From the NCBI GenBank assembly GCA_042570105.1, contig JBHPHW010000003.1, positions 1-57,818 on the forward strand: a stretch of DNA of 57,818 nucleotides. Reading direction: 5' to 3'. The position numbers and the translations under genes are program-made. Below, one piece after another: positions 365-14,853 of the stretch. How positions within the stretch are numbered: the first letter of the stretch is position 1; each line of letters starts with the position of its first letter. This DNA comes from Candidatus Omnitrophota bacterium. GTDB taxonomy: Bacteria > Omnitrophota > Gorgyraeia > Gorgyraeales > Gorgyraeaceae. Under the pieces are notes generated by a model that saw only the letters and a program-made list of their open reading frames with translations, was not told the origin of the DNA and did no database searches.

Positions 365-370
365 TTGAGT

Positions 371-928
371 TCAGGCTTCCTGGGCCTCGCTTAATTGCTT
401 TGAGCCGCGCCAGATGTAGTCTATACAGGAAAGGACAGTAAATAAAACTGCCGGGTACATAAGAAATTTATTATATTTAAAGATCGTGAGGATCGCCATT
501 ATCGCTATCATTTGGAAAAAGGTGGTTATCTTTCCGAGCATGCTTGGTTTTATCGACGTACTACCTTTAAGGAAATATATCAACAGGAAGCCAAGGATAA
601 TAATAATATCGCGGCTTATTACGATCAAAACTGCCCACGCAGGGATGCGCAGGTCCAGAGGTATGCTCTTTATAACGGATAAGGATATAAATGCGCTTAT
701 GATCAACAGCTTGTCTGCTATCGGATCCAGGACAATGCCCAGATCAGTTACCTGACCGCGGCTTCTGGCAATACCTCCGTCAATTGCATCTGTAAAACTT
801 GCGATCGCGAATATAGCCAATGCTACAAATCTAAGATATGTCCTGGTATCACCATAATATAGAATGCTGGCTATAAAAAATGGGACCAGCAGTATGCGGA
901 ATATGGTGATCTTATTGGCGAGATTCAC
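371..928 (-). CDS. pgsA: CDP-diacylglycerol--glycerol-3-phosphate phosphatidyltransferase (CDP-alcohol phosphatidyltransferase family)
   Basis: NLANKITIFRI N-terminus and TDAIDGGIAR...G..LDPIADK motif; GTG start at 928 overlaps the acsC stop (GTGA). Confidence 0.85.
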   Translation of the reverse strand: MNLANKITIFRILLVPFFIASILYYGDTRTYLRFVALAIFAIASFTDAIDGGIARSRGQVTDLGIVLDPIADKLLIISAFISLSVIKSIPLDLRIPAWAVLIVISRDIIIILGFLLIYFLKGSTSIKPSMLGKITTFFQMIAIMAILTIFKYNKFLMYPAVLFTVLSCIDYIWRGSKQLSEAQEA

Positions 929-2265
929 TGTTTCCAGACCTCTTTCAGATACTTTGGTATGCCGGATGCCTCTTTGGGACCGACAAGCACCCCCCATCCT
1001 GATTCGTCTTCAAGCTTTCCGCTCAATACGGAGACGTATCCCGGGATTATTATCTTCTTGTGCGTTACCACATTCTCTGCATCAAATTTTTTCATTGTTT
1101 CAGAGATCACTTCAGGGGTAAACTTTTCAGCGGCCCACGCCGTAAGGACACTCATGCCCTCTGAGTCTGTAACCAATAGATACACTGCCATCTTACTTGC
1201 CTCTATCTCAGGCGAAACAGTATAAAATGTAAGGGAGAAATTAGTAGTCACCAAAAGGGGCGAGTTTTTATCTACCGGGCCGAATGAGTACAGTTTTGGT
1301 TCGACAGTAACCGGCTTCTGCGGATCTGTATAAATATTCTGCCTGAGGGTAATGATGGGGAGCAAGACCTCTTTCTCTATAGAATCGACCACGACTAAGC
1401 TCGCATATTTTGCAATAAACGTGCACGCATGCTGCACTGTTTGATATTTATCTTTTTCCTTTACAAATGCGATAATGGGGTAACCAAACGCCCTGTAATT
1501 TTTCTTCAGGCTCATTCTCCTGATCTGAGTAAAGTCGTTTAGCGCCTCGTTTAATGTCTCGGGAGAGGGATCCAATACCAACTCTTCTATGCCTGATGAA
1601 GCTGCCTCTTTAGAAAGCTTATCTAATTCCTCAAGATCCTTGGCCTTTAAGGCAAGAGGCGCTTTGTAAGTCTTTGCGATCCGGCACATCTCCTTCAGAT
1701 TATCGCTCTTCCCCGCATATATCAAAGGCCTTCTATCAGAACATTTTTTCAGGGCGGATTCTATTGTGTCTACGTTGTCACTAGAAAGTATCAACGCCTT
1801 TTTTGAATTTGCAACAACTTTTTCTACTGCATTTATGTATTTTTCAGTAGACAGGCTACTATTAACTATCGCTATCATATCGATTACAATATGCTGGCCT
1901 ATCCTTTCAAAATGCATCTCGTCGATCAGTTTAACCCTCTCCATCAATGCAGTTTCGGATAAGGTATCCTCCACGCTTATCGCGATCGCGGTTTGATGAT
2001 TAAAGGTTTTTTCATGTCTAAAAAGGACTGTCTCGCCCCCTGTCTCTATCTTTTCATCACCGGAACCGAACGCTATCGTTGCTATCGGCGGCCGCGCAGC
2101 CTGGTCCAGTGCTTTCTTCGCCTCTTCTGTTATATCAGGACATTGATCCAGCGATGCCTTCTTCATTGCAAGCTTCATCGCGAACGCAAGACATGTTGGC
2201 GAGCCGCACTTCTTACAATTGGTCTTTGGCAATAGTTTATAGATATCCAATCCCGATAAAGCCAT
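925..2265 (-). CDS. acsC: corrinoid iron-sulfur protein large subunit (CdhE/AcsC)
   Basis: LPKTNCKKCGSPTCLAFAM 4Fe-4S N-terminus, GGETVLFRHEK, TTNFSLT, GMSVLTAWAA. Confidence 0.95.
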   Translation of the reverse strand: MALSGLDIYKLLPKTNCKKCGSPTCLAFAMKLAMKKASLDQCPDITEEAKKALDQAARPPIATIAFGSGDEKIETGGETVLFRHEKTFNHQTAIAISVEDTLSETALMERVKLIDEMHFERIGQHIVIDMIAIVNSSLSTEKYINAVEKVVANSKKALILSSDNVDTIESALKKCSDRRPLIYAGKSDNLKEMCRIAKTYKAPLALKAKDLEELDKLSKEAASSGIEELVLDPSPETLNEALNDFTQIRRMSLKKNYRAFGYPIIAFVKEKDKYQTVQHACTFIAKYASLVVVDSIEKEVLLPIITLRQNIYTDPQKPVTVEPKLYSFGPVDKNSPLLVTTNFSLTFYTVSPEIEASKMAVYLLVTDSEGMSVLTAWAAEKFTPEVISETMKKFDAENVVTHKKIIIPGYVSVLSGKLEDESGWGVLVGPKEASGIPKYLKEVWKQ

Positions 2266-2276
2266 TTTCTCCTCCT

Positions 2277-4454
2277 CTACATTACCGCTTCCATTGCTAG
2301 GGCCGGGTGAGCGACCTTCTCTAAATAAGGCAGTAATTCCTCAGTAGTCGTAGCTACGGTCTCATCTGCTATTTTATTTATTAAATCCGGGTCACCTAAT
2401 TCTTCGGCTCTTTTCTTCAGCTTATCCAGAAGCGATTCTTTTAGCTCTTTAGGCATCCATACCACTCTTTTAAGCCCGCCTTCGGCAGAGATAAACCTCT
2501 TGCTGATAAGATAGAGCCTTCCTACTCCCATAAAGCCGGGTGTTTGCTGGCCTCCTCCGGTTGTGCCTGCTAAAGTTGAAAAAGTCATACCCGCAGGCGT
2601 CATGCCTGCATGTTCTCTATTTACTATCATAAATCCATTGGCCTCCGGCAATATCGCCACTATACATTCAAAACAACCGCAACTGGTCTCAGGGGAATCT
2701 ATTATAGAATACCCGCAAAACCTTTCCAGTGTCCGATTGGATTTTTGGAGTATTGCCTCATTTACACCCTTCCACTCCCCCTTTACAGGATCGATCAGCT
2801 CTCCTTTCTTGATGGGCTGATTAGGCCCCGAGGGGTTTAATTCATAAGACGCCTTGGCATCCAGCCAGTTGTACGCACCGCACAATCCAATCCTTTCGGG
2901 TTTTATTATGCACAAGTGGTTAGGCGCAAAGCTTTGACAGAGCGTGCATGTCCAGAATAGGTCCACACTATCATCTGTCATACCTGAGACGCGAACATCT
3001 CTTTCCTCATACGCAGCTTGAGCTTCCTTCATCACTCTTTTAACATCATCCCCTTTTGTATATATAGTGACCTGGACCTTATCTACTATTGTGCTGAATA
3101 CATCGTGAAATCTGGCATGCAATATTACTCCAAAATGTCTCAGCTTAAGCCCTTTTGCCTTTGCATCCTTTGAAATCCTGACCCAGCACATATCCCTCTG
3201 GCCCATATGGAATATACCCATAGCTTCGTTCAATAAACTATGTACCCGTCTTTCGAGAATCGGCTCAAAATCCTTCTGCATCTTCCTGCCGGCTACCTCT
3301 ACAAGGATCCCTAAAGGCGCTGCCTCACCTTCCTTCATCTCATCCACCTTGGGTCCTATGACTTCGATCTTTCCGTCTTCTATTGTTTCCGGTCCTACCA
3401 TCTTCACATACTCAAAAGCATCTGAATATTTACCGCCAAACTGCACATGCATCTGTTCACGCCTGACCCTTTCTCCTTCAAATGCAGGAGAATATGAAAC
3501 AGGTATAGGGATGTCTGCGATCTTTATCTTCACCCCTCTTACTTCAATGGCTTTAGGCACGATCTTTTTATGGTCCAGCTCTCTTACTACATGCTCATAT
3601 GTACATATGCCGCTCGGTAGTATCTCAGGTATCTTAGTATCTGCTATGATCGGAAAACCCATATTTATAGCGCCTGCGCCGGTTGCATATTTAATATCAT
3701 CCAGCTCTCCCAAGACCATTCCAAACGCAAATATCCTGTTCTGACAATATTTCAGGCATTTAAGTGCCTCTCCTTTTTTGTGGCCGCCAAAGGTAAGCGC
3801 CCCGCGAATAGCCCAGTTTAAAGGATATATCGCGCTCAGTGTATCCCTTCCGTAAGGGACTATATAGGTATCCCAACCCATCTCTACCTTCTCTTCCAAC
3901 AGCTGGTCGATTATGCTTCTTCCATTCACAGAGCTACCGACGAAGGTCATTATACTTCGTTTCTGTAGTTCGCGGACAATATAGACTGCGGTTTTATTGT
4001 CTTCAGTAGCGCCCAGGATCGCTGCAAATCCAGGCATCCTCCCATCGACAAGCTGAATGCCCAGGGTACGCAAGATAGTATCTGAAAAAAATCCATTGCA
4101 GTCCTTCTGTGGTTCCTGGCCATAGACATACCTCAAGGCCATTATAATCTCTTCACACAATAAGGTTGCCACGCCTGAATCAAGTGTATTCCCCAGATAC
4201 GGAAGCCATATCTTTTCTTTTGGCTCATCATGAAGAAGTGTTTTTGAAAATCCTAAGACCTCTTTTGCCCCATTTAAGTCTTTTACCTCTTTCCCAAGAA
4301 GGGCATATGCCATAGGCAAATAAAAAGCCGTCTCCGGAAACTTGATCTCGGAGGAAGCGCCTTTTTCTTTAATGGTCTTGTTAAGAAACTCTTCGGCCTG
4401 TTTATAGATCTCGTTTGCACCTCTTATAGCAGCTGATGCAATTATCTTTGAGAT
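2277..4454 (-). CDS. acsB: acetyl-CoA synthase (bacterial type, about 725 aa)
   Basis: A-cluster motifs CTLCQSFAP, GLCGAYNWLD, TSCGCFEC; frame stays open 45 codons upstream of the tracked start (4319) to ATC at 4454 (ISKIIASAAIRGA) behind AAGGAG. Confidence 0.93.
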   Translation of the reverse strand: MSKIIASAAIRGANEIYKQAEEFLNKTIKEKGASSEIKFPETAFYLPMAYALLGKEVKDLNGAKEVLGFSKTLLHDEPKEKIWLPYLGNTLDSGVATLLCEEIIMALRYVYGQEPQKDCNGFFSDTILRTLGIQLVDGRMPGFAAILGATEDNKTAVYIVRELQKRSIMTFVGSSVNGRSIIDQLLEEKVEMGWDTYIVPYGRDTLSAIYPLNWAIRGALTFGGHKKGEALKCLKYCQNRIFAFGMVLGELDDIKYATGAGAINMGFPIIADTKIPEILPSGICTYEHVVRELDHKKIVPKAIEVRGVKIKIADIPIPVSYSPAFEGERVRREQMHVQFGGKYSDAFEYVKMVGPETIEDGKIEVIGPKVDEMKEGEAAPLGILVEVAGRKMQKDFEPILERRVHSLLNEAMGIFHMGQRDMCWVRISKDAKAKGLKLRHFGVILHARFHDVFSTIVDKVQVTIYTKGDDVKRVMKEAQAAYEERDVRVSGMTDDSVDLFWTCTLCQSFAPNHLCIIKPERIGLCGAYNWLDAKASYELNPSGPNQPIKKGELIDPVKGEWKGVNEAILQKSNRTLERFCGYSIIDSPETSCGCFECIVAILPEANGFMIVNREHAGMTPAGMTFSTLAGTTGGGQQTPGFMGVGRLYLISKRFISAEGGLKRVVWMPKELKESLLDKLKKRAEELGDPDLINKIADETVATTTEELLPYLEKVAHPALAMEAVM

Positions 4455-4491
4455 TTTCCTCTCCTTATATAGTTAACTTTTTATGTATGCC

Positions 4492-5268
4492 TTATGATTT
4501 TCCTTTGATTGAGCATACCTGGTCTTTTAATCTTTTGCGTCTGCAATTACTGCAGAGTTCAAATATATCCTGAGGTATATCTATTTTTCCTTTGATATGA
4601 TCTAATTCCTTTAGGGTGCCGAAACGAGCGCCGCAGGCCTTACAACTAACTAGTTCAAGTTCTGTTTTGTCATTATGTATCCGACGGGCCTTTTCGGCAT
4701 CCTCCATCTTGATTGCCCCTGTAGGACACACAAAGGCGCAGGCCCCACAGCCAATGCATGCCTCAGAATGACCGGCAAACGGCGTATCAATCCTTCGTTC
4801 TTTACCCCGGTTGATGAAACTAATCGCGGAGGAACCTATTATATCCTCACAAGCCCTAACGCAGAGGCCGCAGAGAATACAATCCTCATTTTCATCTGCA
4901 GCCCTTAGTCTCTGAGCCTCGATGCCCACGTCTTTGGCCAACTCCTGTATCTCTTTTACGTTAGGGCAGCGCGCCAATAATAATTCTACAATAAACTTAC
5001 GGGCTGATTTTACCTTTTCTGAATCAGTCTTTATTATAAGGCCGTCCCATACCGGGTAAGTACACGCTGTGATCAGGCTTGAGCGCTTTGGCGTAATGAT
5101 CTCAACCTGGCATACGCGACAGGCCCCATAAGGCGTTAATGCCTCATGATAACAAAGAGTGGGTATATCTATCCCTGATCTTTTTGCCGCCTCAAGTATA
5201 GTCACGCCTTCTTTCACTTGTATCTCTCGGCCATCAATGGTTATTTTTACCATCTTACCTTTTTTCAT
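4492..5268 (-). CDS. NuoG/HydA N-terminal-like Fe-S subunit (2Fe-2S plus 2x4Fe-4S), no H-cluster or molybdopterin domain; HytD-like
   Basis: IPTLCYH...GACRVC...TAC, CILCGLCVRAC, CIGCGACAFVCP, C-terminal CxxC...CxxC; only 258 aa. Confidence 0.85.
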   Translation of the reverse strand: MKKGKMVKITIDGREIQVKEGVTILEAAKRSGIDIPTLCYHEALTPYGACRVCQVEIITPKRSSLITACTYPVWDGLIIKTDSEKVKSARKFIVELLLARCPNVKEIQELAKDVGIEAQRLRAADENEDCILCGLCVRACEDIIGSSAISFINRGKERRIDTPFAGHSEACIGCGACAFVCPTGAIKMEDAEKARRIHNDKTELELVSCKACGARFGTLKELDHIKGKIDIPQDIFELCSNCRRKRLKDQVCSIKGKS

Positions 5269-7121
5269 TCTATCCTTACAGCCTCAAATTTACAGACCTC
5301 TTTACAGATCCCGCATTTGATGCAAGTCTCCTGGTCTATCTTGTGCGGTTTTTTCTTGTCTCCGGAAATGGCATCCTGAGGGCATTCCTTTTTACAAACA
5401 CCACAGCCAGTGCATGCATCTTCATCAATAGAATAACGGATCAATGCATTACAAGAGCCAGCCGGACATTTTTTATCATCGATATGGGCCTCGTATTCAT
5501 TACGAAAATACCTTATGGTGGTCAAGACCGGATTGGGCGCGCTTTTCCCCAGTGCGCAAAGAGAAGTCTCTTTGATCTTTCCTCCCAATTCCTCAAGTAA
5601 CTCTACATCTCCGGCTTTCCCCTCTCCTTTACTGATCTGGGTAAGGATCTCCAGCATGTGCCTTACCCCCTCGCGACAGGGTGTACACTTACCACAGGAC
5701 TCATTTATAGTAAACGATAGAAAATACTTGGCCACATTGACCATGCAAGTACCCTCATCCATAACTATCATACCGCCGGAACCCATCATCGAGCCTGCCT
5801 CGGTGAGCTTTTCATAGTCCACAGGAAGGTCCAGGAGTTTTTCAGGAATACATCCGCCTGAAGGGCCGCCTGTCTGGACTGCCTTGAAGTTTTTTCCTTC
5901 TGGTATCCCTCCGCCTATATCATAGATCAACTCGCGCAGGGTTATGCCCATCGGCACTTCCACAAGGCCGGTGTTATTGATCTTGCCCACTAAAGAAAAT
6001 ATCATAGTACCCTTGCTTTTCTCGGTCCCTATCTTTCTATACCAATCCGCGCCCTTATCAATGATCAAAGGCACAGTCGCCCATGTCTTGACATTATTTA
6101 GAGTAGTGGGTTTATCCCAAAGGCCCTTTTCAGTCGCATGGGCATGTTTAAATCTGGGTTCGCCGATCCTACCCTCTATGGATGCCATCAATGCAGAGGA
6201 TTCACCACACACAAACGCGCCTCCGCCCCTCGTTATATTAATATCAAAAGAAAATCCGGATCCAAAGATGTCCTTGCCGAGAAATCCATGCTCTTGAACC
6301 TGCTTTAAGGCGATCTCTATGTGTTTTATGGCCAAAGGATATTCGTTCCTGACATAGATATGCCCTTCTTTTGCGCCGATTGCATAAGCGCCTATCAACA
6401 TCCCCTCTATAACAGCATGAGGATTCCCCTCGAGTATGCTTCTATCCTGAAAGGTGCCGGGATCTCCCTCATCGGCATTACAGATCACATATTTGATTTT
6501 CCCCTCAGCCTTGTGGCAGGATTCCCATTTTCTGCCAGTAAGGAACCCTCCTCCTCCTCGACCCCTTAAGCCTGATTTCTTGATTTCCTCAATCACCTCT
6601 AAAGAGGGCTTTCCAGTTACTATCTTGGCAAATGAACCATATCCGCCTATGGCAATATAATCTTCTATATTTGTGGGATCGATCTTACCGTTATTGCCAA
6701 AGATGAGTCTTAGCTGCTTTTTATAAAAAGGTATCTCGTCTTCATGGACTATCACTTCTCCGGTCAGAGGGTCTTTATACAATAAGCGATCGACTGTTTT
6801 TCCATCGATGAGGGTTGTCTGGATTATATCCGGGACATCTTTTTCTTGTACTTTCTGGTAAAAGATCTTGCTTGGATGTATCACTACTAAAGGGCCTCTT
6901 TCGCAGAACCCATGACAGCCTGTAGTGCGAACATCCACTGATTGTTCTATTTTTTTGGTTATAATTTCTTTTCTGAACGCCGCTTCCAAGCCAAGCGCGC
7001 CAGAGGCGCAACATCCTGTCCCCTTACAGATAGTAATACAAGGTCTGGAAGGATCTCTTTTGGATAAAATAGATTTTTTAAGCGCCGCTAATTCAGTTGG
7101 ATTCTTGACTTTTTTTGACAT
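5265..7121 (-). CDS. NuoF/HydB-like FMN, NAD(P)H-binding subunit
   Basis: N-terminal thioredoxin-like 2Fe-2S (CKGTGC..GCHGFCERGP), GLRGRGGGGF, CNADEGDPG, GGPSGGC, ESCGKCTPCREG, HIDDKKCPAGSC, two C-terminal 4Fe-4S motifs. Confidence 0.93.
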   Translation of the reverse strand: MSKKVKNPTELAALKKSILSKRDPSRPCITICKGTGCCASGALGLEAAFRKEIITKKIEQSVDVRTTGCHGFCERGPLVVIHPSKIFYQKVQEKDVPDIIQTTLIDGKTVDRLLYKDPLTGEVIVHEDEIPFYKKQLRLIFGNNGKIDPTNIEDYIAIGGYGSFAKIVTGKPSLEVIEEIKKSGLRGRGGGGFLTGRKWESCHKAEGKIKYVICNADEGDPGTFQDRSILEGNPHAVIEGMLIGAYAIGAKEGHIYVRNEYPLAIKHIEIALKQVQEHGFLGKDIFGSGFSFDINITRGGGAFVCGESSALMASIEGRIGEPRFKHAHATEKGLWDKPTTLNNVKTWATVPLIIDKGADWYRKIGTEKSKGTMIFSLVGKINNTGLVEVPMGITLRELIYDIGGGIPEGKNFKAVQTGGPSGGCIPEKLLDLPVDYEKLTEAGSMMGSGGMIVMDEGTCMVNVAKYFLSFTINESCGKCTPCREGVRHMLEILTQISKGEGKAGDVELLEELGGKIKETSLCALGKSAPNPVLTTIRYFRNEYEAHIDDKKCPAGSCNALIRYSIDEDACTGCGVCKKECPQDAISGDKKKPHKIDQETCIKCGICKEVCKFEAVRIE

Positions 7122-7560
7122 TTTTCTCTTTATCGATATATTTCTTTAAGATCGTCTTTACTTTTTTAGCGCTCATTTTGCCGTAATATTCACCATTGAT
7201 CACCATCAAAGGGCCCAATGCGCACGCCCCTAAACAATTTACGGTCTTAAGTGTAAACTGAAGGTCTCCTGAAGTCTCGTCAGGTTTGATCTTTAATGTC
7301 CTTTGGATCTCATCCAGGATCCTTTCAGTGCCGCGTACATGACAGGCAGTGCCCATACAAAGCGAGACCAAATATTTACCGCGTGGCTTTAAACTGAATG
7401 CATTATAGAAGGTAGCCAGACTGTAGGTCCGACTCAAAGGGATGCCTAATTTTTCTGTTATGCGAATAAGGTCTTTTTTTGGAAGATAGTTGTATTTATT
7501 TTGGATCTCCTGCAGCATGCCGATTACATCTCTATGTTTTGCTTTCTTAACCTTTGCCAT
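7093..7560 (-). CDS. NuoE/HydC-like 2Fe-2S subunit
   Basis: ATFYNAF, CMGTACHVRG, CLGACALGP. Confidence 0.92.
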   Translation of the reverse strand: MAKVKKAKHRDVIGMLQEIQNKYNYLPKKDLIRITEKLGIPLSRTYSLATFYNAFSLKPRGKYLVSLCMGTACHVRGTERILDEIQRTLKIKPDETSGDLQFTLKTVNCLGACALGPLMVINGEYYGKMSAKKVKTILKKYIDKEKNVKKSQESN

Positions 7561-8078
7561 CAGGCTGCCTCTTTACTTTTTTTAAACTGGACCAGGAAGT
7601 CTTTTTTCTTCTGTTTATTTATATCTTCTATGGATTCAAACTGCAGGGCCTTGCTCGGACAGGCTGCTACGCAGGCCGGAAGCTCATCTTTATTCAGCCT
7701 CTCAAAACAGAGATCGCATTTAGTAACAGCCGCGCCGCCGCGGCCCGCGCGGATCACCCCGAACGGACAAACCAATACGCACCATTTGCATCCGATGCAA
7801 AGTTCTTTTTTGATCAAGACAGGACTTTCAGCGTCTAGTCTTGCTGTAGCCTTGGTAGGACAGATCTTAATGCATGGAGCATCCTCGCAGTGCCGGCATT
7901 GTAAAGGGATCCCCAGATCATCCACTCCCTCGACCTTGAGCCTTACCTGTGGAAGCGGTTCTTCACAAATCGCCTTTACTAAGTCTTTTGATTTAGAATG
8001 TGCAATCGCACATTGGAGCTCGCAAGTCCTGCAAGTCAGACACTTTTTCGGATCGATTAAAATCATTCCCTTTTTCAT
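7560..8078 (-). CDS. cooF: CooF/HytE-like 4x[4Fe-4S] electron transfer protein
   Basis: CLTCRTCELQC, CRHCEDAPCIKICP, CIGCKWCVLVCP, KCDLC..PACVAACP; follows cooS. Confidence 0.85.
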   Translation of the reverse strand: MKKGMILIDPKKCLTCRTCELQCAIAHSKSKDLVKAICEEPLPQVRLKVEGVDDLGIPLQCRHCEDAPCIKICPTKATARLDAESPVLIKKELCIGCKWCVLVCPFGVIRAGRGGAAVTKCDLCFERLNKDELPACVAACPSKALQFESIEDINKQKKKDFLVQFKKSKEAA

Positions 8079-8082
8079 GAGT

Positions 8083-10005
8083 TTACTTGGATACTGCCTC
8101 GGCTATATCTTTATACATCATAGGTTTAAGTTTAAGGGCCTCGCGTTTTTTATTAATATGGTCTATCATAAGTTGAGCCCCTTTTATAGGATCACCCTCG
8201 AATGCCCATTTTCCGCCAAACATAGGCTCTACCTCGCTACAGATATAATTTGTCAGGTTTTTGCTTCCAAGGACCCTTAAAGGGGAACCTATAACCACAA
8301 AAATACCTGATGCGACAAAATACCAACCTATTGCAATCGCCTTTTCTGACATCCACTCAGGGGCTGCCCCTGCAACCGGTAATTCATCAATGCTATTTCC
8401 AATGCCGCCTTCTTTGACCATCTCACAGCACGCGGTCAGGATCCTTGTGTTATCAACGCAAGACCCTGTATGAAGGATAGGCGGTATACCAACTGTCTCG
8501 CAGATCTCTTTAAGCCCGTCACCGGCATATCTAAATGCTGCCTCGGGCGTCAAAAGTCCTGCCTTTCCGCATGCGCCTGCTGAACAGCCGGTCTGCACTA
8601 CAAGCACGTCATTTTTTATTAAATGCTTTACCATGTCAGCATGACAGAGGCTTGACTCATTCTTAGGATTATCGCAGCCAACAACACCTGCCACGCCCCT
8701 TAGCCTTCCACCGATTATTGCGTCATTGAGAGGCCTGTAAGAAGGCCTGAATGTCCCCCCAAGATTATAAAATACGTTTTCCATTGTAAAACCGGCGACG
8801 ATCGTCATCTTTTCTTTGGGGATATTTAGTTTGGTCTTGTCTCTGTTTTTATAATTTTCGATCGCTTCAGTTAAAATCTTCTTTGCGATCTGTAATGCCT
8901 CTTTTTCATGAAACTCTATATGCTCTATTCCTTTGAATTTTGCCTTAGGAGAGGTCGAGATAAGCTTTGTGTGATAGTTTTTGGCTACTTGCGGTAAAGA
9001 TGGCATGATGCATTGGATATCCACGACCATTGCCTCGATAGCGCCGGTGACTATTGCAAGTTCCTGCTGCAGGAAATTTCCCGCCATTGGCATGCCATGC
9101 CTCATCAGTATCTCCGCAGCAGTACAGCATATACCTGCAAGGTTTATACCTTTTGCGCCGTTTGATTTTACAAGCTCTACTATCTCCTTATCCTGACTGG
9201 CAGTAACTATCATATCCGAAAGCGTTGGTTCGTGACCATGCACCAGGACATTGACCTCATCTTCTTTTAGCACACCCAGATTTACTTCTGCGTGAATAGG
9301 TTGAGGCGAACCAAAAAGGATATCGCTCAGATCCGTCGCTATCATAGAACCGCCCCAGCCATCAACGAGCCCTGCCTTTATTGCGCATTCTAATATATGC
9401 CTGTATTCATTGTCGCATCCCATATGAGTCCGCGACATGGCTTGTACAATCTCTATGTCGATACCAACAGGATTTACGTTGAACTTCTTCCAGGTATCCT
9501 GTTGCTTTTTAGGGGCCCTTTTAACGAGGTTTAATCCGCCTTCCTGCTGGCCGAATTCTTTTAGTATTCTCTCTCCCAATTCTTCGGCTATTTTAAGGTC
9601 GCTCTTTCCTTCGATCTTTAATCCGAATTCAACAGCAAGTTTTTTTAGCTTGCCAGTGTCCTTTATGGAATAATCCTTTGCCTGGCCTCTTCCTAACTCA
9701 AGAAGAGTCTTTGCCAGGTCACGGCCATGATCTGAATGGCACGCAGAACCAGCCGCAGCCATCCTCGCAAGATTTCTTGCGGCAATAACATCACTGTCTG
9801 CGCCGCATGCCCCTTCCTGAGGGCCTTCGCCAAAGGGATCTATGCGGCACGGGCCAAGGTTACATATCTTACAACATACGCCTAGCGTCCCGAAACCACA
9901 ACGTGGTTCTTGGGCCGCAAAACGATCCCACACCGTGGTGATATTATTCTTTTTAGCAAGGTCTATTAATTTATCATTTACAGGATTACCTGTTGGCTTT
10001 GACAT
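8083..10005 (-). CDS. cooS: anaerobic Ni-dependent carbon monoxide dehydrogenase catalytic subunit
   Basis: CGFGTLGVCCKICNLGPC (D/B clusters); HGHEP, GICCT, DIQC, VGCDN, TGCSA, GSCVDN (C-cluster ligands); PEWMSEKA. Confidence 0.96.
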   Translation of the reverse strand: MSKPTGNPVNDKLIDLAKKNNITTVWDRFAAQEPRCGFGTLGVCCKICNLGPCRIDPFGEGPQEGACGADSDVIAARNLARMAAAGSACHSDHGRDLAKTLLELGRGQAKDYSIKDTGKLKKLAVEFGLKIEGKSDLKIAEELGERILKEFGQQEGGLNLVKRAPKKQQDTWKKFNVNPVGIDIEIVQAMSRTHMGCDNEYRHILECAIKAGLVDGWGGSMIATDLSDILFGSPQPIHAEVNLGVLKEDEVNVLVHGHEPTLSDMIVTASQDKEIVELVKSNGAKGINLAGICCTAAEILMRHGMPMAGNFLQQELAIVTGAIEAMVVDIQCIMPSLPQVAKNYHTKLISTSPKAKFKGIEHIEFHEKEALQIAKKILTEAIENYKNRDKTKLNIPKEKMTIVAGFTMENVFYNLGGTFRPSYRPLNDAIIGGRLRGVAGVVGCDNPKNESSLCHADMVKHLIKNDVLVVQTGCSAGACGKAGLLTPEAAFRYAGDGLKEICETVGIPPILHTGSCVDNTRILTACCEMVKEGGIGNSIDELPVAGAAPEWMSEKAIAIGWYFVASGIFVVIGSPLRVLGSKNLTNYICSEVEPMFGGKWAFEGDPIKGAQLMIDHINKKREALKLKPMMYKDIAEAVSK

Positions 10006-11589: not shown

Positions 11590-11638
11590 TTAAGTTCCCC
11601 CTAATTTCTCTCTTCAGGTCAAGCTGGAGCTGAAGAAA

Positions 11639-12505
11639 CTATACCTGCAACTTGTATACCTCTACCAGGTTCTTCATCAACATCGCTACTGTCAAAGGCC
11701 CTACGCCGCCTGGTACAGGAGTAATATAGGAAGCCCTTTCCTTTGCCTTATCAAATTCTACATCGCCTACGAGCTTTCCTTCGATGCGGTTAATCCCCAC
11801 ATCGATTACAATCGCGCCATCCTTTACCCATTCGCCTTTTATAAGGCCTGCCTTTCCAACAGCCACAATCAATATCTCCGCCTTTTTCACAAATTCCGGC
11901 AGGGTCCCACGTTCCCCTGTAGCTATATGGCATACAGTCACAGTTGCAAATTTATTCAAAAGCATCAGAGACAATGGTTTTCCAACGATCTCACTATGCC
12001 CGACTATTACAACTTCCTTTCCATACAGCTTGATCGACTCTATTGAATTTAAAAGCTCCATGCATGAAGCTGCTGTACACGGGAGGACATTTGTGTTTCC
12101 AAACACGATCTCTCCCATGTTTTGAGGATGCACTGCCTCGACATCCTTTGAGGGAGATATGAATCGCGATATCAGTTTTGCGTCTATTTGAGTCGGTAAT
12201 GGCATCTGGACTATAATGCCGTGGACTGTTTTATCATTGTTGAGTGCATTGATCGCTTTTATCAATCCCTCCTGCGAAGTCTTCTCGTCTAGTTTTTCGA
12301 GTGAATAATCTACGCCGAGATTTTCGGCATTTTTCTTCTGCGATCTTAAATAGACCTCTGATGCCGGATTTTCACCAACCTGGATACTGACTAGCTTTGG
12401 TGAGGTCTTATGCTTGGCCTTTAATCCTTCTATTTCGCCTTTTATCTTTTCCTTTATGTTTAAAGCAAGAAGCTTGCCATCTAATAATTTTGCACCCATC
12501 TTCAC
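11639..12505 (-). CDS. folD: methylene-THF dehydrogenase/methenyl-THF cyclohydrolase
   Basis: GIIVQMPLP, PCTA, GHSEIVGKP, DVGIN, TPVPGGVGPLTV. Confidence 0.95.
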   Translation of the reverse strand: MKMGAKLLDGKLLALNIKEKIKGEIEGLKAKHKTSPKLVSIQVGENPASEVYLRSQKKNAENLGVDYSLEKLDEKTSQEGLIKAINALNNDKTVHGIIVQMPLPTQIDAKLISRFISPSKDVEAVHPQNMGEIVFGNTNVLPCTAASCMELLNSIESIKLYGKEVVIVGHSEIVGKPLSLMLLNKFATVTVCHIATGERGTLPEFVKKAEILIVAVGKAGLIKGEWVKDGAIVIDVGINRIEGKLVGDVEFDKAKERASYITPVPGGVGPLTVAMLMKNLVEVYKLQV

Positions 12506-13101
12506 CCCATCTTTTCTTTTGTTTTAGTGATCGCGCCTTTATATAAAATTCCCTTTTCCGTTCCTAAGGCATCTAAGACTATCCTCTCTTTTTCCACAAA
12601 CTCTTTATCCTCTATCCCTTTAAGGTTTATCTCAGAATTGAATATGCCGGAATTAAACGCTGCTCCCAAGAGCTCAGCGCCGCAGCCTATATCTGTTATT
12701 AAATTGGGATTTCCCTTTCCGGAAATATCCAAAGCTATCTGTAGGCCTAGATTGGATAATCTGCACATTTTTAAAGAGACTAGATAGCCATCTCTCAATG
12801 CGTTATCAATATTTTTTTTATCTTTCGTCTTGAATGCGCTGGATATCGCGGAATATATCCTTGCATCTTCATCTACCAATGCAGTAAATTCTTCCCTGAT
12901 CTTTTTTAAAGCCACGAGGGATTTCCGGATATCCTCTTGAACCGCTTTATATTTTTGATTCCCGATCGTAAAATTGCAGACCATTTCCAGCAACGCTATG
13001 CCCAGCGCCCCGCAAACACCAGCTGCGCTCCCTCCGCCCGGAGTAGGCTTGCGCGCAGCAAGGTCATCAATATACTTATTTATGGATTTGTTTATATGCA
13101 T
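12502..13101 (-). CDS. fchA: formiminoTHF cyclodeaminase/methenyl-THF cyclohydrolase (FchA)
   Basis: PTPGGGSAA, MVCNFTIG, GNPNLITD; lies between fhs and folD. Confidence 0.85.
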   Translation of the reverse strand: MHINKSINKYIDDLAARKPTPGGGSAAGVCGALGIALLEMVCNFTIGNQKYKAVQEDIRKSLVALKKIREEFTALVDEDARIYSAISSAFKTKDKKNIDNALRDGYLVSLKMCRLSNLGLQIALDISGKGNPNLITDIGCGAELLGAAFNSGIFNSEINLKGIEDKEFVEKERIVLDALGTEKGILYKGAITKTKEKMG

Positions 13102-13112
13102 AGTAACCTCTC

Positions 13113-14822
13113 CTAAAACAACCCTACTACCTTCCCGTTTTTATCTATGTCCACCTTTGTGCCGGCTGGGACAGACGGCAACCCCGGCATCGTACGCATC
13201 TTTCCGCACAATGGATACAAAAACCCTGCGCCTGCTGAAAGCTTGATATCTCTTATTGGCAGGGTAAAGTCCCGAGGCCTGCCCTTCAGGCTAGGGTCAT
13301 GTGAAAGCGAGAGATGTGTCTTTGCCATATTTATAGGCAGTTTATCATATCCAAGCTTTGTATAATATTCTATTTTCTTCAAGGCCTCTTCTGAATACTC
13401 TACATCCTTTGCCCCGTAGATCTTTGTCGCAATAGTCTCGATCTTTTCCTTTATGGGAATATCCAGGGGGTAGAGAAATTTAAAATCAGATTTTTGTTCA
13501 CACATCTTTAAAACCGCTTTCGCCAGATCTATAGCACCGTCCCCACCATTTTCCCAATACTCACCCACGACAACATCCATCGCGCCTGCTTTCTTAGCTA
13601 TGCCTTTGATCGCCTCTATCTCCTTATTAGTGTCATATAGGTACTTATTTATACAAACAACCACATTCAACCCAAATAACCTTAAGTTCTCAATGTGTTT
13701 CACTAAATTCGAGGCGCCTTTTATAACAGCCTCGACATTTTCCTTCTTCACCATCTCCATATCAACGGACCTGCCGGGGATTGCTGTAAAGCCTCCTCCA
13801 TGCATCTTTAAGGCCTTTACCGTACACACGAGCACTATGCCATCGGGCGCCTTAAGGCCTTTAGATCTGCATTTTATATCTAAAAACTTCTCTGCCCCGC
13901 AATCCGCGCCAAAACCACTTTCTGTTACCACATAATCAGCCAATCTTAATGCTATCATATCCGCCAGGACAGAATTATTGCCGTGCGCGATATTGGCAAA
14001 CGGGCCTGCATGCATTATGCAAGGGGTATTTTCGGTAGTCTGGATCAGATTCGGTTTTATCGCGTCTTTTAATAAGACTGTCATAGCCCCTGCGCATTTT
14101 AAATCCTTGGCTGTGATAGCCTTCCCGTCATGACTTGAAGCAACAACCATTCTCTCGAGTCTTTCTTTCAAATCAGATAAGTCAGTCGCTAAAGCCAGTA
14201 TAGCCATTACCTCACTCGCTACGGTTATATCAAAACCAGTCTCTCTAGGGATACCGTTTTCCTTGCCGCCAAGGCCTATTTTAATATTTCGCAATGCCCT
14301 GTCACTTATGTCAACAACCCTGTGGATAACAATCGTATCTGGATTTATATTCAGACTATTCCCTTTTAATAAATGATTATCAATGAATGCCGCCAGAAGA
14401 TTATTTGCCGCGCCTACTGCATGGATATCTCCTGTAAAATGTAGATTTATATCTTCCATAGGCAAGACCTGGGAATAACCTCCTCCTGCTGCCCCTCCCT
14501 TTATCCCGAATACAGGCCCCATTGATGGCTGCCTTAAAGTAGTGATGATCGATTTACCGAGCTTTGCAAGCCCTAGACTTAAGCCTATAGTGGTTACGGT
14601 CTTTCCTTCCCCTAAAGGCGTAGGCGTAACAGCAGTAACATCAATATATTTTCCAAATGGTTTATTTTTTAGGCGGTCTAAAACAGAAAGGGATATCTTC
14701 GCCTTGTATTTCCCGTATAATTCCAACTCGTCTTCAGTTATTCCTATTTGGCGGGCGATTTCAATGATGGGCTTTAGTTTTGCGGCTTGGGCGATTTCAA
14801 GATCACTGGGAACCTTTTTCAA
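13113..14822 (-). CDS. fhs: formate--tetrahydrofolate ligase
   Basis: TPTPLGEGKTVT, GIKGGAAGGGYSQV, HAGPFANIAHG, MPGLP; TTG start after GGAGG. Confidence 0.97.
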   Translation of the reverse strand: MKKVPSDLEIAQAAKLKPIIEIARQIGITEDELELYGKYKAKISLSVLDRLKNKPFGKYIDVTAVTPTPLGEGKTVTTIGLSLGLAKLGKSIITTLRQPSMGPVFGIKGGAAGGGYSQVLPMEDINLHFTGDIHAVGAANNLLAAFIDNHLLKGNSLNINPDTIVIHRVVDISDRALRNIKIGLGGKENGIPRETGFDITVASEVMAILALATDLSDLKERLERMVVASSHDGKAITAKDLKCAGAMTVLLKDAIKPNLIQTTENTPCIMHAGPFANIAHGNNSVLADMIALRLADYVVTESGFGADCGAEKFLDIKCRSKGLKAPDGIVLVCTVKALKMHGGGFTAIPGRSVDMEMVKKENVEAVIKGASNLVKHIENLRLFGLNVVVCINKYLYDTNKEIEAIKGIAKKAGAMDVVVGEYWENGGDGAIDLAKAVLKMCEQKSDFKFLYPLDIPIKEKIETIATKIYGAKDVEYSEEALKKIEYYTKLGYDKLPINMAKTHLSLSHDPSLKGRPRDFTLPIRDIKLSAGAGFLYPLCGKMRTMPGLPSVPAGTKVDIDKNGKVVGLF

Positions 14823-14853
14823 TATCCACCTCCAAGGGTTGTTCGCGCACGGC

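What the first reader, a model, noticed from the sequence alone, without database searches (positions are those of the whole stretch)
4492..10005. CODH wired to a HytCBD/HydABC-like diaphorase module that has no hydrogenase or FDH catalytic subunit
Seen: cooS-cooF-nuoE-nuoF-nuoG-like genes are tightly packed or overlapping and lie between cooC and acsB. The third subunit is only 258 aa, with no H-cluster, no molybdopterin domain and no HxxxCxxC cluster. The F subunit keeps the N-terminal 2Fe-2S, GGPSG, the H..CP..C motif and two terminal 4Fe-4S clusters typical of HydB-type bifurcating enzymes. Known: HydABC/HytA-E complexes bifurcate electrons between NAD(P)H and ferredoxin. Inference: CODH (via CooF) may be the catalytic partner, giving a pyridine-nucleotide/ferredoxin-coupled CODH/ACS complex; alternatively the module supplies MetF.
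Basis: partly seen in the sequence, partly recalled or inferred. Interest (0 to 1): 0.7.

Follow-up and report, generated by a model that had tools for sequence, protein, structure and literature searches.

The report
Bifurcating-type NADH module inside CODH/ACS operon
An uncultured Omnitrophota bacterium carries, between its CO dehydrogenase and acetyl-CoA synthase genes, an iron-sulfur wire plus a three-subunit flavin module of the electron-bifurcating Bfu type, a kind of enzyme predicted in print but never purified, which would let CO2 fixation run on NADH plus ferredoxin.

Summary
On the minus strand lies one packed operon: fhs-fchA-folD-metF-cooC-cooS-cooF-bfuC-bfuB-bfuA-acsB-acsC. The 258-aa third subunit is a Type 2 BfuA: it has the 2Fe-2S and two 4Fe-4S sites, lacks the His-ligated cluster, and carries a C-terminal four-Cys motif.

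Its best solved match is WorA of the bifurcating aldehyde oxidoreductase WorABCSL (PDB 9mqx). CooF matches WorS, the wire that WorA docks.

The genome (76% complete) has one CODH. Its only formate dehydrogenase has its own E/F pair. No hydrogenase was found.

The cooF-bfuCBA set behaves as a cassette:
- It sits between cooS and acsB in four related genomes.
- It stands alone in a fifth genome, where cooS abuts acsB.
- In five of six same-family relatives the same slot holds an FAD/NAD(P) oxidoreductase (FNOR) instead.

Nine of 80 metagenome loci also link such modules to CODH/ACS, on separate BfuB branches. A complex prediction supports BfuA-CooF docking.

This scan has noted the same layout on other DNA at least eight times. 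New here are the ACS-embedded Omnitrophota form and the FNOR/Bfu swap.

The parts
13113..14822 (-). fhs, formate-tetrahydrofolate ligase; first gene of the operon as seen
   Evidence: PF01268, E 7e-261
12502..13101 (-). fchA, cyclodeaminase/cyclohydrolase-type protein
   Evidence: PF04961, E 2e-48
11639..12505 (-). folD, methylene-THF dehydrogenase/cyclohydrolase
   Evidence: PF02882 and PF00763
10723..11589 (-). metF, methylene-THF reductase, with no adjacent metV
   Evidence: PF02219, E 1e-39. The only PF12225 (MetV) gene lies on contig C2.
9986..10726 (-). cooC-type nickel-insertion ATPase
   Evidence: CbiA/ParA-type P-loop families. The gene name comes from its position and recalled knowledge.
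8083..10005 (-). cooS/acsA, Ni-CODH catalytic subunit; the only Prismane-family gene found in the genome
   Evidence: TIGR01702, 650 bits, cut-off 478. One PF03063 match in the genome. Matches the solved CODH/ACS beta subunit 9fzy_B at E 1e-186.
7560..8078 (-). cooF, four-[4Fe-4S] wire, WorS/HycB-like, with a C-terminal helix motif QKKKDFLVQFKK
   Evidence: Fer4_11. 16 Cys invariant in 5 of 5 orthologues. Residues 5-167 align to 4-151 of the 152-aa chain 9mqx_E, E 3e-23.
7093..7560 (-). bfuC (NuoE/HydC-like), one [2Fe-2S] at C68, C73, C109, C113
   Evidence: PF01257, E 3e-47; Cys positions
5265..7121 (-). bfuB (NuoF/HydB-like): FMN/NAD(H) site, N-terminal [2Fe-2S], N3-type [4Fe-4S], H546/C552/C557 site, two C-terminal [4Fe-4S]
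   Evidence: Pfam. Best solved matches are bifurcating B subunits, 7t2r_B at E 1e-239 and 9mqx_B at 5e-238, against Nqo1 at 6e-117. Motif positions.
4492..5268 (-). bfuA, Type 2 (short): A1 [2Fe-2S], two [4Fe-4S], no His cluster, no catalytic domain, four-Cys zinc-finger-like motif and a basic tail
   Evidence: Pfam and NCBIfam. Residues 7-246 align to 5-237 of the 247-aa chain 9mqx_A, E 1e-49. Alignment A1. Cys positions.
2277..4454 (-). acsB, acetyl-CoA synthase; probable start at ATC 4454 rather than the listed TTG 4319
   Evidence: NF040764, 984 bits, cut-off 800. N-terminus compared with relatives.
925..2265 (-). acsC, large subunit of the corrinoid iron-sulfur protein
   Evidence: PF03599 and PF04060; NF003195, 595 bits

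Best explanation
The four genes cooF-bfuC-bfuB-bfuA encode a CooF iron-sulfur wire and a Type 2 BfuABC flavin/iron-sulfur module. This module connects the cell's only Ni-CODH, the CODH of its CODH/ACS, to both NAD(H) and ferredoxin.

Proposed path (inferred by analogy with the solved WorABCSL complex):
1. CODH C-, B- and D-clusters.
2. Four [4Fe-4S] clusters of CooF.
3. BfuA clusters A4, A2 and A1.
4. FMN and the neighbouring clusters of BfuB and BfuC.
5. From there a hydride goes to or from NAD at the FMN. Low-potential electrons go to or from ferredoxin at the two C-terminal clusters of BfuB.

By analogy with HydABC the reaction would be: 2 CO + 2 H2O + NAD+ + 2 Fd(ox) = 2 CO2 + NADH + 2 Fd(red) + 3 H+. 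In an acetogenic cell it would run in reverse, so half of the electrons for the carbonyl branch would come from NADH.

Shown here:
- the gene content and the cofactor-binding motifs;
- the conserved and repeatedly evolved gene linkage;
- the likeness to WorA and WorS.

Inferred:
- that the proteins form one complex;
- that the complex bifurcates;
- the direction in which it runs.
For: 1. Motifs. All cofactor motifs of a BfuBC core and a Type 2 BfuA are present.

2. Solved matches. BfuA-short aligns with the 247-aa chain 9mqx_A over residues 7-246, including both CxxC pairs. CooF aligns with chain 9mqx_E over 5-167, including the C-terminal QKKKxF..F helix. In that structure WorA's zinc finger and C-terminal helix recruit WorS and bring clusters S4 and A4 to 10.7 A (PMC12318220, passages read).

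3. Complex prediction, BfuA + CooF.
- Score 0.84 in each of 3 runs; best of 3 controls 0.00.
- The mark was reached by 116 of 157 solved complexes and 2 of 215 mismatched pairs.
- Runs share at least 86% of contacts; partner pLDDT is at least 82.
- The interface joins BfuA 174-180 (loop of C171/C174/C177) and 216-252 (four-Cys motif and tail) to CooF 92-110 (loop of C94/97/100/104).

4. No other partner found. The genome has one Prismane gene. It has one molybdopterin enzyme, with its own E/F pair. The third Complex1_51K match is RnfC. No hydrogenase was found.

5. Synteny. cooS-cooF-bfuCBA-acsB-acsC recurs in L053, L054 and L055/G181 at 58-73% BfuA identity. It recurs in metagenome loci L139, L140 and L142, and in L184, whose contig ends within bfuA.

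6. Cassette. Genome G401 has cooF-bfuCBA alone (L056), and its cooS lies directly next to acsB (L138).

7. Slot swap. Of 6 same-family operons fetched, 5 carry a 429-aa Pyr_redox_2 + Rubredoxin_C flavoprotein between cooF and acsB, and 1 carries nothing. No such gene occurs in 14 cassette-related loci (13 carrying bfu genes, plus the cassette-less WL operon L138), nor as an orthologue in this genome.

8. Repeated linkage. 9 of 80 metagenome loci link a short-BfuA module to cooS and/or acsB, in four gene orders. Their BfuB proteins fall on separate branches. An AU test rejects one clade (delta lnL 297, p 1.7e-78; the group was named after the tree was seen).
Against: - No biochemical or expression data exist. 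No sequencing run was listed for this DNA.
- CO/CO2 (E0' about -520 mV, Table 1 of PMC9304861) lies below ferredoxin. CO oxidation therefore needs no bifurcation. The reverse reaction with NADH plus ferredoxin is uphill at standard CO pressure.
- The BfuA tail after the four-Cys motif (RRKRLKDQVCSIKGKS) is basic. WorA's adaptor helix is described as largely hydrophobic.
- The complex prediction may reflect memory of the solved WorA-WorS interface.
- It is unknown whether a CODH dimer flanked by two AcsB subunits can also hold CooF.
- One contig (L163) has metF-cooF-bfuCBA with no cooS in its 8 kb.
- The layout is rare. Of 127 AcsB-positive genomes among 401 sampled Omnitrophota, only G000 and G181 showed it among the 12 short-BfuA loci whose context I read.
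- acsD and acsE were not found in this 76%-complete genome.
Confidence: 0.6

Rival explanations
1. The CooF-BfuABC module serves methylene-THF reductase (MetF, with MetV encoded elsewhere). It would couple NADH oxidation to methylene-THF reduction and ferredoxin reduction. Its place beside cooS would only reflect membership of the same Wood-Ljungdahl operon.
For: - metF lies two genes upstream of cooS in the window.
- metV-metF lie directly upstream of cooS in L055/G181.
- Metagenome contig L163 reads metF-cooF-bfuC-bfuB-bfuA with no cooS in view.
- Contig L170 carries a BfuB, a BfuA-HdrA fusion, MvhD and metV-metF together.
- The electron donor of MetF in this genome is not evident: MetV is alone on contig C2.
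Against: - In G401 the cassette stands apart from metF, which stays in the WL operon.
- In L054 folD and cooC separate metF from cooS.
- In same-family kin the slot after cooF holds FNOR, a flavoprotein known from cooS-cooF-FNOR clusters (PMC6344411, section 14), not a MetF partner.
- CooF is a WorS/HycB-type wire, a type that usually sits next to CODH.
- L141, L147, L194 and L207 put bfuB-bfuA directly before cooS or acsB, with no metF hit in the stretches held.
Confidence: 0.13
2. The module is wired to CODH through CooF but does not bifurcate. It would act as a plain CO:NAD+ (or NADH:CO2) oxidoreductase, a functional equivalent of CooS-CooF-FNOR. The ferredoxin-type domains of BfuB would serve only as internal relays.
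For: - CO oxidation by NAD+ is strongly downhill and needs no coupling (potentials in Table 1 of PMC9304861).
- The same slot in 5 of 6 kin holds a simple FAD/NAD(P) oxidoreductase. This suggests the job to be done is a pyridine-nucleotide link.
Against: - BfuB keeps every feature that separates bifurcating B subunits from NADH-only relatives. These are the N-terminal 2Fe-2S, the H/C/C site and the two C-terminal 4Fe-4S.
- It scores twice as high against solved bifurcating B subunits as against Nqo1 or FdsB.
- The paper holds that non-bifurcating homologues bind and oxidise NADH but do not interact with ferredoxin (PMC9304861, passage).
Confidence: 0.15
3. The trio is the diaphorase of a hydrogenase or formate dehydrogenase encoded elsewhere (HoxEFU-, HytCBD- or HydBC-like). 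It would lie in the acs operon only for co-regulation.
For: - The genome is only 75.9% complete, so a hydrogenase could be missing.
- In G181 a [NiFe] hydrogenase small subunit, large subunit and protease lie upstream of metV-metF-cooS.
- BfuB's best solved match is the B subunit of a NiFe-hydrogenase Bfu complex.
Against: - The only FdhA has its own E/F pair, and those proteins are distant paralogues.
- BfuA lacks the His-ligated A3 cluster through which the NiFe-type enzymes feed electrons (PMC9304861 and PMC12318220; sequence).
- The HoxU model scores 130 bits against a cut-off of 333.
- cooF always travels with the trio in the window's clade.
Confidence: 0.05

Closest known systems
WorABCSL (Wor-Bfu), the electron-bifurcating tungsten aldehyde oxidoreductase of Acetomicrobium mobile, PDB 9mqx (Feng et al. 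2025, PMC12318220; abstract and passages read)
   Same: - A BfuBC core plus a short Type 2 BfuA that lacks cluster A3 and any catalytic domain.
- BfuA ends in a four-Cys motif (a zinc finger in WorA).
- A 4x[4Fe-4S] small subunit (WorS here, CooF in the window) with a C-terminal helix motif.
- Window BfuA, BfuB and CooF match chains A, B and E at E 1e-49, 5e-238 and 3e-23.
   Different: - The catalytic subunit is a Ni-CODH, not a tungstopterin WorL.
- The BfuA tail is basic rather than hydrophobic.
- The stoichiometry, and whether CooF forms a nanowire, are unknown.
- The genes sit inside an acetyl-CoA synthase operon.
Codh-Bfu / CodhABCSF, predicted from genomes only (Schut et al. 2022, PMC9304861; Feng et al. 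2025, PMC12318220; passages read, supplements not seen)
   Same: BfuABC plus CooS and CooF in one gene cluster, with a Type 2 BfuA. CO is proposed as the third substrate besides NAD and ferredoxin.
   Different: - The papers report 4 sequences, in Firmicutes only. The Codh genes lie between bfuB and bfuA, and the role is read as CO oxidation or detoxification.
- Here the host is Omnitrophota and the order is cooS-cooF-bfuC-bfuB-bfuA.
- The CODH is the only one in the genome, and the cluster lies between cooC and acsB of a full Wood-Ljungdahl operon.
- I could not check whether the Firmicutes clusters also adjoin acs genes.
CooS-CooF-FNOR clusters (Ni-CODH with a FAD-dependent NAD(P) oxidoreductase; discussed in Inoue et al. 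2019, PMC6344411, section 14 read)
   Same: CODH and CooF are followed by a pyridine-nucleotide-linked flavoprotein. Same-family Omnitrophota carry exactly this between cooS-cooF and acsB.
   Different: The window has a three-subunit FMN/iron-sulfur Bfu module instead of the single FAD protein. Its CooF is only 37-43% identical to the FNOR-linked CooFs. A ferredoxin site is added.
HydABC / NiFe-HydABCSL / NfnABC bifurcating enzymes (solved B subunits 7t2r, 7q4v, 8a6t, 7p5h, 9n5u)
   Same: BfuB and BfuC have the same domain order and cluster ligands. Matches run from E 1e-239 to 1e-199.
   Different: In those enzymes BfuA either carries the catalytic domain or has the A3 cluster that takes electrons from the hydrogenase subunits. 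Here BfuA has neither.

Membership tests
Bfu (BfuABC / HydABC) family | BfuB with a NuoF-type FMN/NAD(H) domain and an N3-type [4Fe-4S] | tested here: met
   PF01512 at E 9e-44 and PF10589 at E 7e-33. GRGGGGF at 187; C476/479/482/522.
Bfu (BfuABC / HydABC) family | BfuB with an N-terminal [2Fe-2S] domain and two C-terminal [4Fe-4S] clusters, which NADH-only relatives lack | tested here: met
   PF01257 piece at 24-102 and a Fer4 pair at 564-614. C32/37/69/73, C570/573/576/580 and C600/603/606/610. These lie in conserved, ungapped stretches of the alignment to 7t2r_B.
Bfu (BfuABC / HydABC) family | B2 site between the core and the C-terminal domain ([2Fe-2S] or zinc in solved enzymes) | tested here: met
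   AHIDDKKCPAGSC aligns with AHIKDKRCPAKIC of 7t2r_B; H546, C552, C557. Which metal binds cannot be told from sequence.
Bfu (BfuABC / HydABC) family | BfuC with one thioredoxin-like [2Fe-2S] | tested here: met
   PF01257 at E 3e-47; C68, C73, C109, C113
Bfu (BfuABC / HydABC) family | BfuA N-terminal domain with A1 and A2. Type 2 lacks A3 and A5 and keeps A4. | tested here: met
   2Fe-2S at C39/50/53/69 and two CxxCxxCxxxC motifs. No PF10588 match, and only C101 is left at the His-cluster site. The Type 2 definition is from PMC9304861.
Bfu (BfuABC / HydABC) family | Coupled reduction of NAD+ and ferredoxin by a third substrate | not testable with these tools
   Needs the purified enzyme.
Codh-Bfu / CodhABCSF (predicted class) | cooS and cooF encoded in one cluster with bfuABC | tested here: met
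   The same order occurs in L053, L054, L055, L139, L140, L142 and L184.
Codh-Bfu / CodhABCSF (predicted class) | CooF is a WorS homologue that docks on the BfuA C-terminus | tested here: inconclusive
   Homology is met. The four Cys of the WorA zinc finger are conserved. The complex prediction passed at 0.84 against a best control of 0.00, but it may lean on the solved WorA-WorS complex. The tail sequence differs from WorA's.
Bacterial CODH/ACS | CODH gene next to a full-length acsB and the corrinoid protein genes | tested here: met
   acsB: NF040764, 984 bits against a cut-off of 800. acsC: NF003195, 595 bits. It is the sole CODH in the genome. The CODH matches the solved CODH/ACS beta subunit 9fzy_B at E 1e-186.
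Bacterial CODH/ACS | Small corrinoid subunit AcsD and methyltransferase AcsE present | tested here: inconclusive
   PF03599 found only acsC in this 75.9%-complete genome. I did not search for acsE. Relatives L055, L142 and L194 have acsD and acsE downstream.
CooS-CooF-FNOR | FAD/NAD(P) pyridine-nucleotide-disulphide-type oxidoreductase next to cooF | tested here: not met
   None in the window's operon. The genome has only 24-32% identical partial hits to the kin's FNOR.
HoxEFU diaphorase of the bidirectional [NiFe] hydrogenase | HoxU/HoxE equivalogs together with HoxYH hydrogenase subunits | tested here: not met
   HoxU model: 130 bits against a cut-off of 333. HoxE model: 132 against 224. No PF00374 match in the genome (75.9% complete).

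The most novel reading that the evidence does not exclude
In these bacteria the CODH of CODH/ACS would not be a plain ferredoxin enzyme. It would reduce CO2 to the enzyme-bound CO with electrons confurcated from NADH and reduced ferredoxin: 2 CO2 + NADH + 2 Fd(red) -> 2 CO.

This becomes feasible because the ACS tunnel keeps free CO some four orders of magnitude below CO2. The step from about -520 mV to the -390 mV mean of NADH and Fd equals about 4.4 decades at 29.6 mV per decade (my calculation from the potentials in PMC9304861, Table 1).

The genome also has an FDH with its own Bfu core and an Rnf complex. Together these would shift half of the low-potential electron demand of both CO2-reducing steps to NADH. 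More reduced ferredoxin would then be left for Rnf-driven ion pumping.

The FNOR-or-Bfu choice in the same operon slot would mean that a pyridine-nucleotide-linked CODH/ACS is the rule in this Omnitrophota family, not the exception.
Probability: 0.35. Interest if true: 0.8.

Novelty: new variant of a known kind. Interest (0 to 1): 0.55.

Why it matters
The energy yield of the Wood-Ljungdahl pathway depends on how many reduced ferredoxins each CO2-reducing step costs. Textbook schemes give CODH/ACS ferredoxin alone (recalled knowledge).

A CODH/ACS with a built-in NADH-plus-ferredoxin module would change that budget for a whole group of small-genome anaerobes. It would also give the untested Codh-Bfu class a physiological role beyond CO detoxification.

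The natural series found here offers ready-made comparators for biochemistry:
- operon with FNOR in the slot;
- operon with bfuCBA in the slot;
- operon with an empty slot;
- cassette standing alone.

Tried and rejected
- Sequencing runs: none was listed for window 4200-10100, so there is no evidence on expression.
I could not see which genomes carry Codh-Bfu or whether acs genes adjoin them. This bears directly on the novelty claim.
- Literature searches:
  - "Codh-Bfu" found only PMC9304861.
  - "CodhABCSF" found only PMC12318220.
  - acsA+cooF+nuoF+acsB found one unrelated paper.
  - The Omnitrophota survey PMC10066038 has one "bifurcat" hit, on a hydrogenase, and no CODH-Bfu mention (find).
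  - Inoue 2019 lists COG1034/1894/1905 in the Wood-Ljungdahl context group of Ni-CODHs without interpretation.
- Promoter/terminator scan of 300-15600: it found 41 promoter-like sites against 29.7 expected, and 27 terminator-like sites against 13.4 expected. None lies in the bfuA-acsB gap. I drew no conclusion from it.
- HoxEFU reading: rejected (cut-offs).
- "The module belongs to the FDH": rejected, because FdhA has its own pair.
- "The four-Cys tail is specific to CODH-linked BfuA": rejected. It also occurs in a Por-linked (L152), a Wor-linked (L203) and a Glt-linked (L048) short BfuA.
- First call to complex prediction: the machine was busy. I resent the same request later.

Full report
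**What is there**

The first 15 kb of the window hold one minus-strand operon: fhs, fchA, folD, metF, cooC, cooS, cooF, a NuoE-like gene, a NuoF-like gene, a 258-aa NuoG-N/HoxU-like gene, acsB and acsC.

The genes from cooC to the 258-aa gene overlap or are a few bases apart. The apparent 172-nt gap before acsB shrinks to 37 nt if acsB starts at an ATC at 4454. That ATC stands exactly where relatives have the Met of MSKIIASAAIRGA, and it follows a strong ribosome-binding site.

The small subunit has only a 2Fe-2S and two 4Fe-4S motifs. It has no H-cluster, no molybdopterin domain and no His-ligated cluster domain. The F subunit has the N-terminal 2Fe-2S, GGPSG, the H-x5-C-x4-C site and two terminal 4Fe-4S motifs.

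The small subunit ends in CxxC-x26-CxxC (C209, C212, C239, C242). This motif is invariant in 5 of 5 orthologues.

**Whose module is it?**

The genome is a 1.26-Mb, 73-contig assembly rated 75.9% complete. Earlier notes of this scan call it Omnitrophota. The two closest loci in the public genome collection carry that name in their record titles.

A census of the genome gave the following:
- It has one Prismane-family gene, the window's cooS.
- It has one molybdopterin enzyme, a 911-aa FdhA on contig C7. This FdhA keeps the His-cluster domain and has its own 150-aa NuoE-like and 616-aa NuoF-like genes directly upstream.
- The third NuoF-domain match is RnfC of an rnfCDGEAB cluster.
- No [FeFe] or [NiFe] hydrogenase matched. 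In a 76%-complete genome this is not absence.
- MetV lies alone on contig C2.

So no orphan catalytic subunit elsewhere calls for this trio.

**What it resembles**

BfuB matches the B subunits of solved bifurcating enzymes far better than NADH-only relatives:

| Solved chain | Molecule as named in the entry | E-value |
|---|---|---|
| 7t2r_B | NiFe hydrogenase subunit B | 1e-239 |
| 9mqx_B | NADH-binding (51 kD) subunit | 5e-238 |
| 7q4v_B | Iron hydrogenase HydB | 8e-234 |
| 8a6t_B | Electron bifurcating hydrogenase subunit HydB | 2e-225 |
| 9n5u_B | NfnB | 7e-206 |
| 7p5h_B | Fe-hydrogenase, subunit beta | 1e-199 |
| 6vw7_B | NAD-dependent formate dehydrogenase beta subunit | 9e-119 |
| 2fug_1 | Nqo1 | 6e-117 |

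The small subunit's best solved match is the 247-aa chain A of 9mqx (E 1e-49). The alignment covers residues 7-246 and both CxxC pairs. CooF aligns end to end with the 152-aa chain E of the same entry, including the C-terminal QKKKxF..F segment.

The code 9MQX occurs once in Feng et al. 2025 (PMC12318220; abstract and passages read). I did not see that passage. The chain names and lengths fit the paper's WorABCSL. The paper describes the cryo-EM structure of the bifurcating tungsten aldehyde oxidoreductase WorABCSL as follows:
- WorA lacks cluster A3 and the usual C-terminal domain.
- WorA ends in a zinc finger and a helix that recruits WorS.
- Clusters S4 and A4 lie 10.7 A apart.
- WorS units join through their own C-terminal helices.

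Schut et al. 2022 (PMC9304861; passages read) define Type 2 Bfu enzymes as those whose BfuA lacks A3 and A5 and takes electrons from extra subunits through A4. The window's trio fits that definition motif for motif.

**Already proposed in print**

Schut et al. list "Codh-Bfu" as an uncharacterised Type 2 enzyme. They report 4 sequences, in Firmicutes only, with the Codh genes lying between bfuB and bfuA. They read it as a way to use or detoxify very low CO.

Feng et al. predict a "CodhABCSF" built like WorABCSL, with CooF as the WorS homologue. They state that it has never been purified.

Inoue et al. 2019 (PMC6344411, section 14 read) list NuoE/F/G-type COGs among the neighbours of Wood-Ljungdahl-type Ni-CODHs, without comment.

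The Omnitrophota survey PMC10066038 does not mention such a module (term search within the paper). Searches for "Codh-Bfu" and "CodhABCSF" found only the two papers above.

This scan has itself noted Bfu modules between cooS/cooF and acsB on other DNA at least eight times. Those notes agree with my reading but are not independent evidence.

**Comparative evidence gathered here**

(a) Orthologous operons. A scan of one genome per species with the small subunit kept 80 loci.
- Four carry close orthologues at 56-73% identity. The remaining 76 are more distant: two are short-BfuA trios without CODH (L057, L058), and most of the rest match FdhA N-termini.
- L053, L054 and L055 repeat cooS-cooF-bfuC-bfuB-bfuA-acsB-acsC.
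- In G181 the operon continues with RACo, a second CooC-like gene, acsD and acsE.

(b) A cassette. The fourth locus, L056, holds cooF-bfuC-bfuB-bfuA alone. The same genome (G401) has fhs-fchA-folD-metF-cooC-cooS-acsB with nothing between cooS and acsB. CooF therefore belongs with the Bfu genes, and the set of four moves as a unit.

(c) A swapped slot. Of 401 sampled Omnitrophota genomes, 127 have AcsB, including all 11 other members of the window's family.
- I fetched 6 of those 11 operons. All read fhs-fchA-folD-metF-(cooC)-cooS-cooF-X-acsB-acsC.
- In 5 of the 6, X is a 429-aa flavoprotein. The five copies are 69-100% identical to one another.
- Pfam, run on two of them, gives Pyr_redox_2 plus Rubredoxin_C. 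This is the FNOR type known from cooS-cooF-FNOR clusters.
- In the sixth (G308), X is absent.
- The FNOR-linked CooFs are only 37-43% identical to the window's CooF; G308's is 63%.
- No FNOR orthologue occurs in the window's genome, nor in 14 cassette-related loci: 13 that carry bfu genes plus the cassette-less WL operon L138.
- So the position after cooF is filled either by a simple NAD(P)-linked flavoprotein or by the NAD-plus-ferredoxin Bfu module.

(d) Repeated linkage. A metagenome scan with the five-sequence alignment kept 80 loci. I sorted them by tblastn with a limited query set:

| Class | Loci |
|---|---|
| Linked to cooS and/or acsB | 9 |
| cooF only | 2 |
| HdrA-like proteins or MvhD (often a BfuA-HdrA fusion) | 36 |
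| FdhA nearby | 2 |
| Nothing recognised (many contigs are short) | 31 |

- The 9 CODH/ACS-linked loci come in four orders. L139, L140 and L142 read cooS-cooF-CBA-acsB, as does L184 up to the end of its contig within bfuA. L188 reads cooF-CBA-acsB. L141 and L147 read bfuB-bfuA-cooS-acsB. L194 and L207 read bfuB-bfuA-acsB.
- The two cooF-only loci are L163 and L203. L163 reads metF-cooF-CBA. L203 proved to be a Wor-Bfu, with an AFOR gene after the CooF-like gene.
- L152, one of the 31 loci with nothing recognised, is Por-linked. L154 has the same ORF layout but was not Pfam-checked.

(e) Trees.
- A careful 32-row BfuB tree puts the five cooF-linked proteins of the window's group in one clade (support 99/97). 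Its sisters are other short-BfuA modules of Omnitrophota. The genome's own FDH-linked paralogue stands far away on a long branch.
- A quick 38-row tree used 22 of the 80 metagenome loci plus 16 earlier rows. I chose those 22 for a complete BfuB and a readable context. It spreads the CODH/ACS-linked BfuBs over at least three places.
- An AU test rejects holding them together (delta lnL 297, p 1.7e-78). I named the group after seeing the tree, and the model was the simpler LG+G4.
- Independent joining of Bfu modules to CODH/ACS operons is hard to explain without a shared function.

(f) Docking. A complex prediction of BfuA with CooF used five-row alignments.
- It scored 0.84 in all three runs; the best of three controls scored 0.00.
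- The mark was reached by 116 of 157 solved complexes and by 2 of 215 mismatched pairs.
- The runs share at least 86% of contacts, and the partner's pLDDT is at least 82.
- The interface pairs the BfuA loop of C171/C174/C177 and the four-Cys tail region with the CooF loop of C94-C104. This is the arrangement described for WorA A4 and WorS S4.
- Because that complex is solved, the pass may show likeness rather than binding.

**How it most likely works**

CO2/CO turnover at the C-cluster would be linked to the BfuB FMN site through CODH's B- and D-clusters, the four CooF clusters and BfuA A4-A2-A1. There electrons are split between NAD and ferredoxin, or merged from NADH and reduced ferredoxin. 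The stoichiometry is inferred from HydABC.

CO/CO2 lies at about -520 mV, below ferredoxin at about -500 mV and NAD at about -280 mV under physiological conditions (Table 1 of PMC9304861). CO oxidation therefore does not need bifurcation. Schut et al. argue that it helps at very low CO.

Inside CODH/ACS the same logic runs in reverse (my inference). If the ACS tunnel keeps CO about 4.4 orders of magnitude below CO2, the couple rises to about -390 mV, the mean of NADH and ferredoxin. Half of the electrons for the carbonyl group could then come from NADH.

The genome also has an FDH with its own Bfu core and an Rnf complex. Together these would spare reduced ferredoxin for ion pumping.

**What remains open**

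- No enzyme has been purified and no transcript seen.
- The BfuA tail is basic, not hydrophobic as in WorA.
- It is unknown whether CooF and AcsB can occupy one CODH dimer.
- Contig L163 (metF-cooF-bfuCBA) keeps the MetF alternative alive.
- The layout is rare. Of the 12 short-BfuA loci whose context I read among 401 genomes, only G181 shares it with the window.
- acsD was not found and acsE was not sought in this incomplete genome.
- I could not see the supplementary tables of Schut et al., and I could not fetch the Firmicutes clusters. I therefore cannot say whether the published Codh-Bfu examples also sit in acs operons. If they do, this is only a new member of that class.

**Verdict**

The new points are:
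- the Omnitrophota, ACS-embedded form built around the sole CODH;
- the four-gene cassette;
- the FNOR/Bfu exchange in one operon slot;
- the repeated, phylogenetically separate linkage to CODH/ACS.

Noticed in passing
window 4319-4472 (minus strand): acsB seems to start at an ATC codon (4454) where four relatives have ATG (MSKIIASAAIRGA against ISKIIASAAIRGAN). An AAGGAGAGG site precedes it. This is either a rare start codon or a base error in the assembly.
   Followed up: partly
L054:10895-14449; L139:5670-10940: AcsB of relatives carries inteins. The L054 frame is 1184 aa, with Intein_splicing and LAGLIDADG domains. In L139 the acsB match is split into three pieces by two gaps of about 1.5 kb. 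Several Omnitrophota AcsB frames of 1187-1263 aa appear (G067, G143, G225, G301).
   Followed up: partly
L046, L048, L049, L051, L052 (and L050 by ORF size only): In other Omnitrophota a bfuC-bfuB-short bfuA trio is followed by a protein of about 530 aa with a Glu_synthase (PF01645) domain. In four of these loci (L046, L051, L052, and L048 by gene size only) glnA or a GltD-like gene lies nearby; L047, a seventh trio without the Glu_synthase gene, has glnA and an ammonium transporter. This may be a Bfu-coupled glutamate synthase. I did not look for it in the literature.
   Followed up: partly
L044:9098-12358 and 36 of 80 metagenome loci: The short BfuA is often fused to, or followed by, an HdrA-like flavoprotein with MvhD. 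Contig L170 adds metV-metF downstream, which suggests a Bfu-Hdr-linked methylene-THF reductase.
   Followed up: no
G000 contig C7, L002:5454-15318: nuoE-nuoF-fdhA (an FDH with a full Bfu-type B subunit) sits amid the molybdenum cofactor genes moeA, mobA, moaA, moaC and mog.
   Followed up: partly
L055:810-3724 (G181): A [NiFe] hydrogenase small subunit, large subunit and HycI protease lie directly upstream of metV-metF-cooS in the nearest out-of-family operon. No such genes were found in the window's genome.
   Followed up: no
G000 contig C2, L010:9265-9924: The only MetV-type gene (PF12225, 219 aa) is not next to metF. It lies between a thioredoxin-fold peroxiredoxin gene and a NifU-like gene.
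   Followed up: no
L222 (G308): This same-family genome has cooS-cooF-acsB with an empty slot, yet its CooF is 63% identical to the window's Bfu-type CooF. Its only short-BfuA trio lies beside the glutamate-synthase-like gene (L048).
   Followed up: no
L042 and L043 (G361, G318): Here bfuC carries an N-terminal extension of about 170 residues and lies next to rnf genes. bfuA is separated from bfuB by about 3 kb holding CBS, PHP and HATPase_c genes.
   Followed up: no
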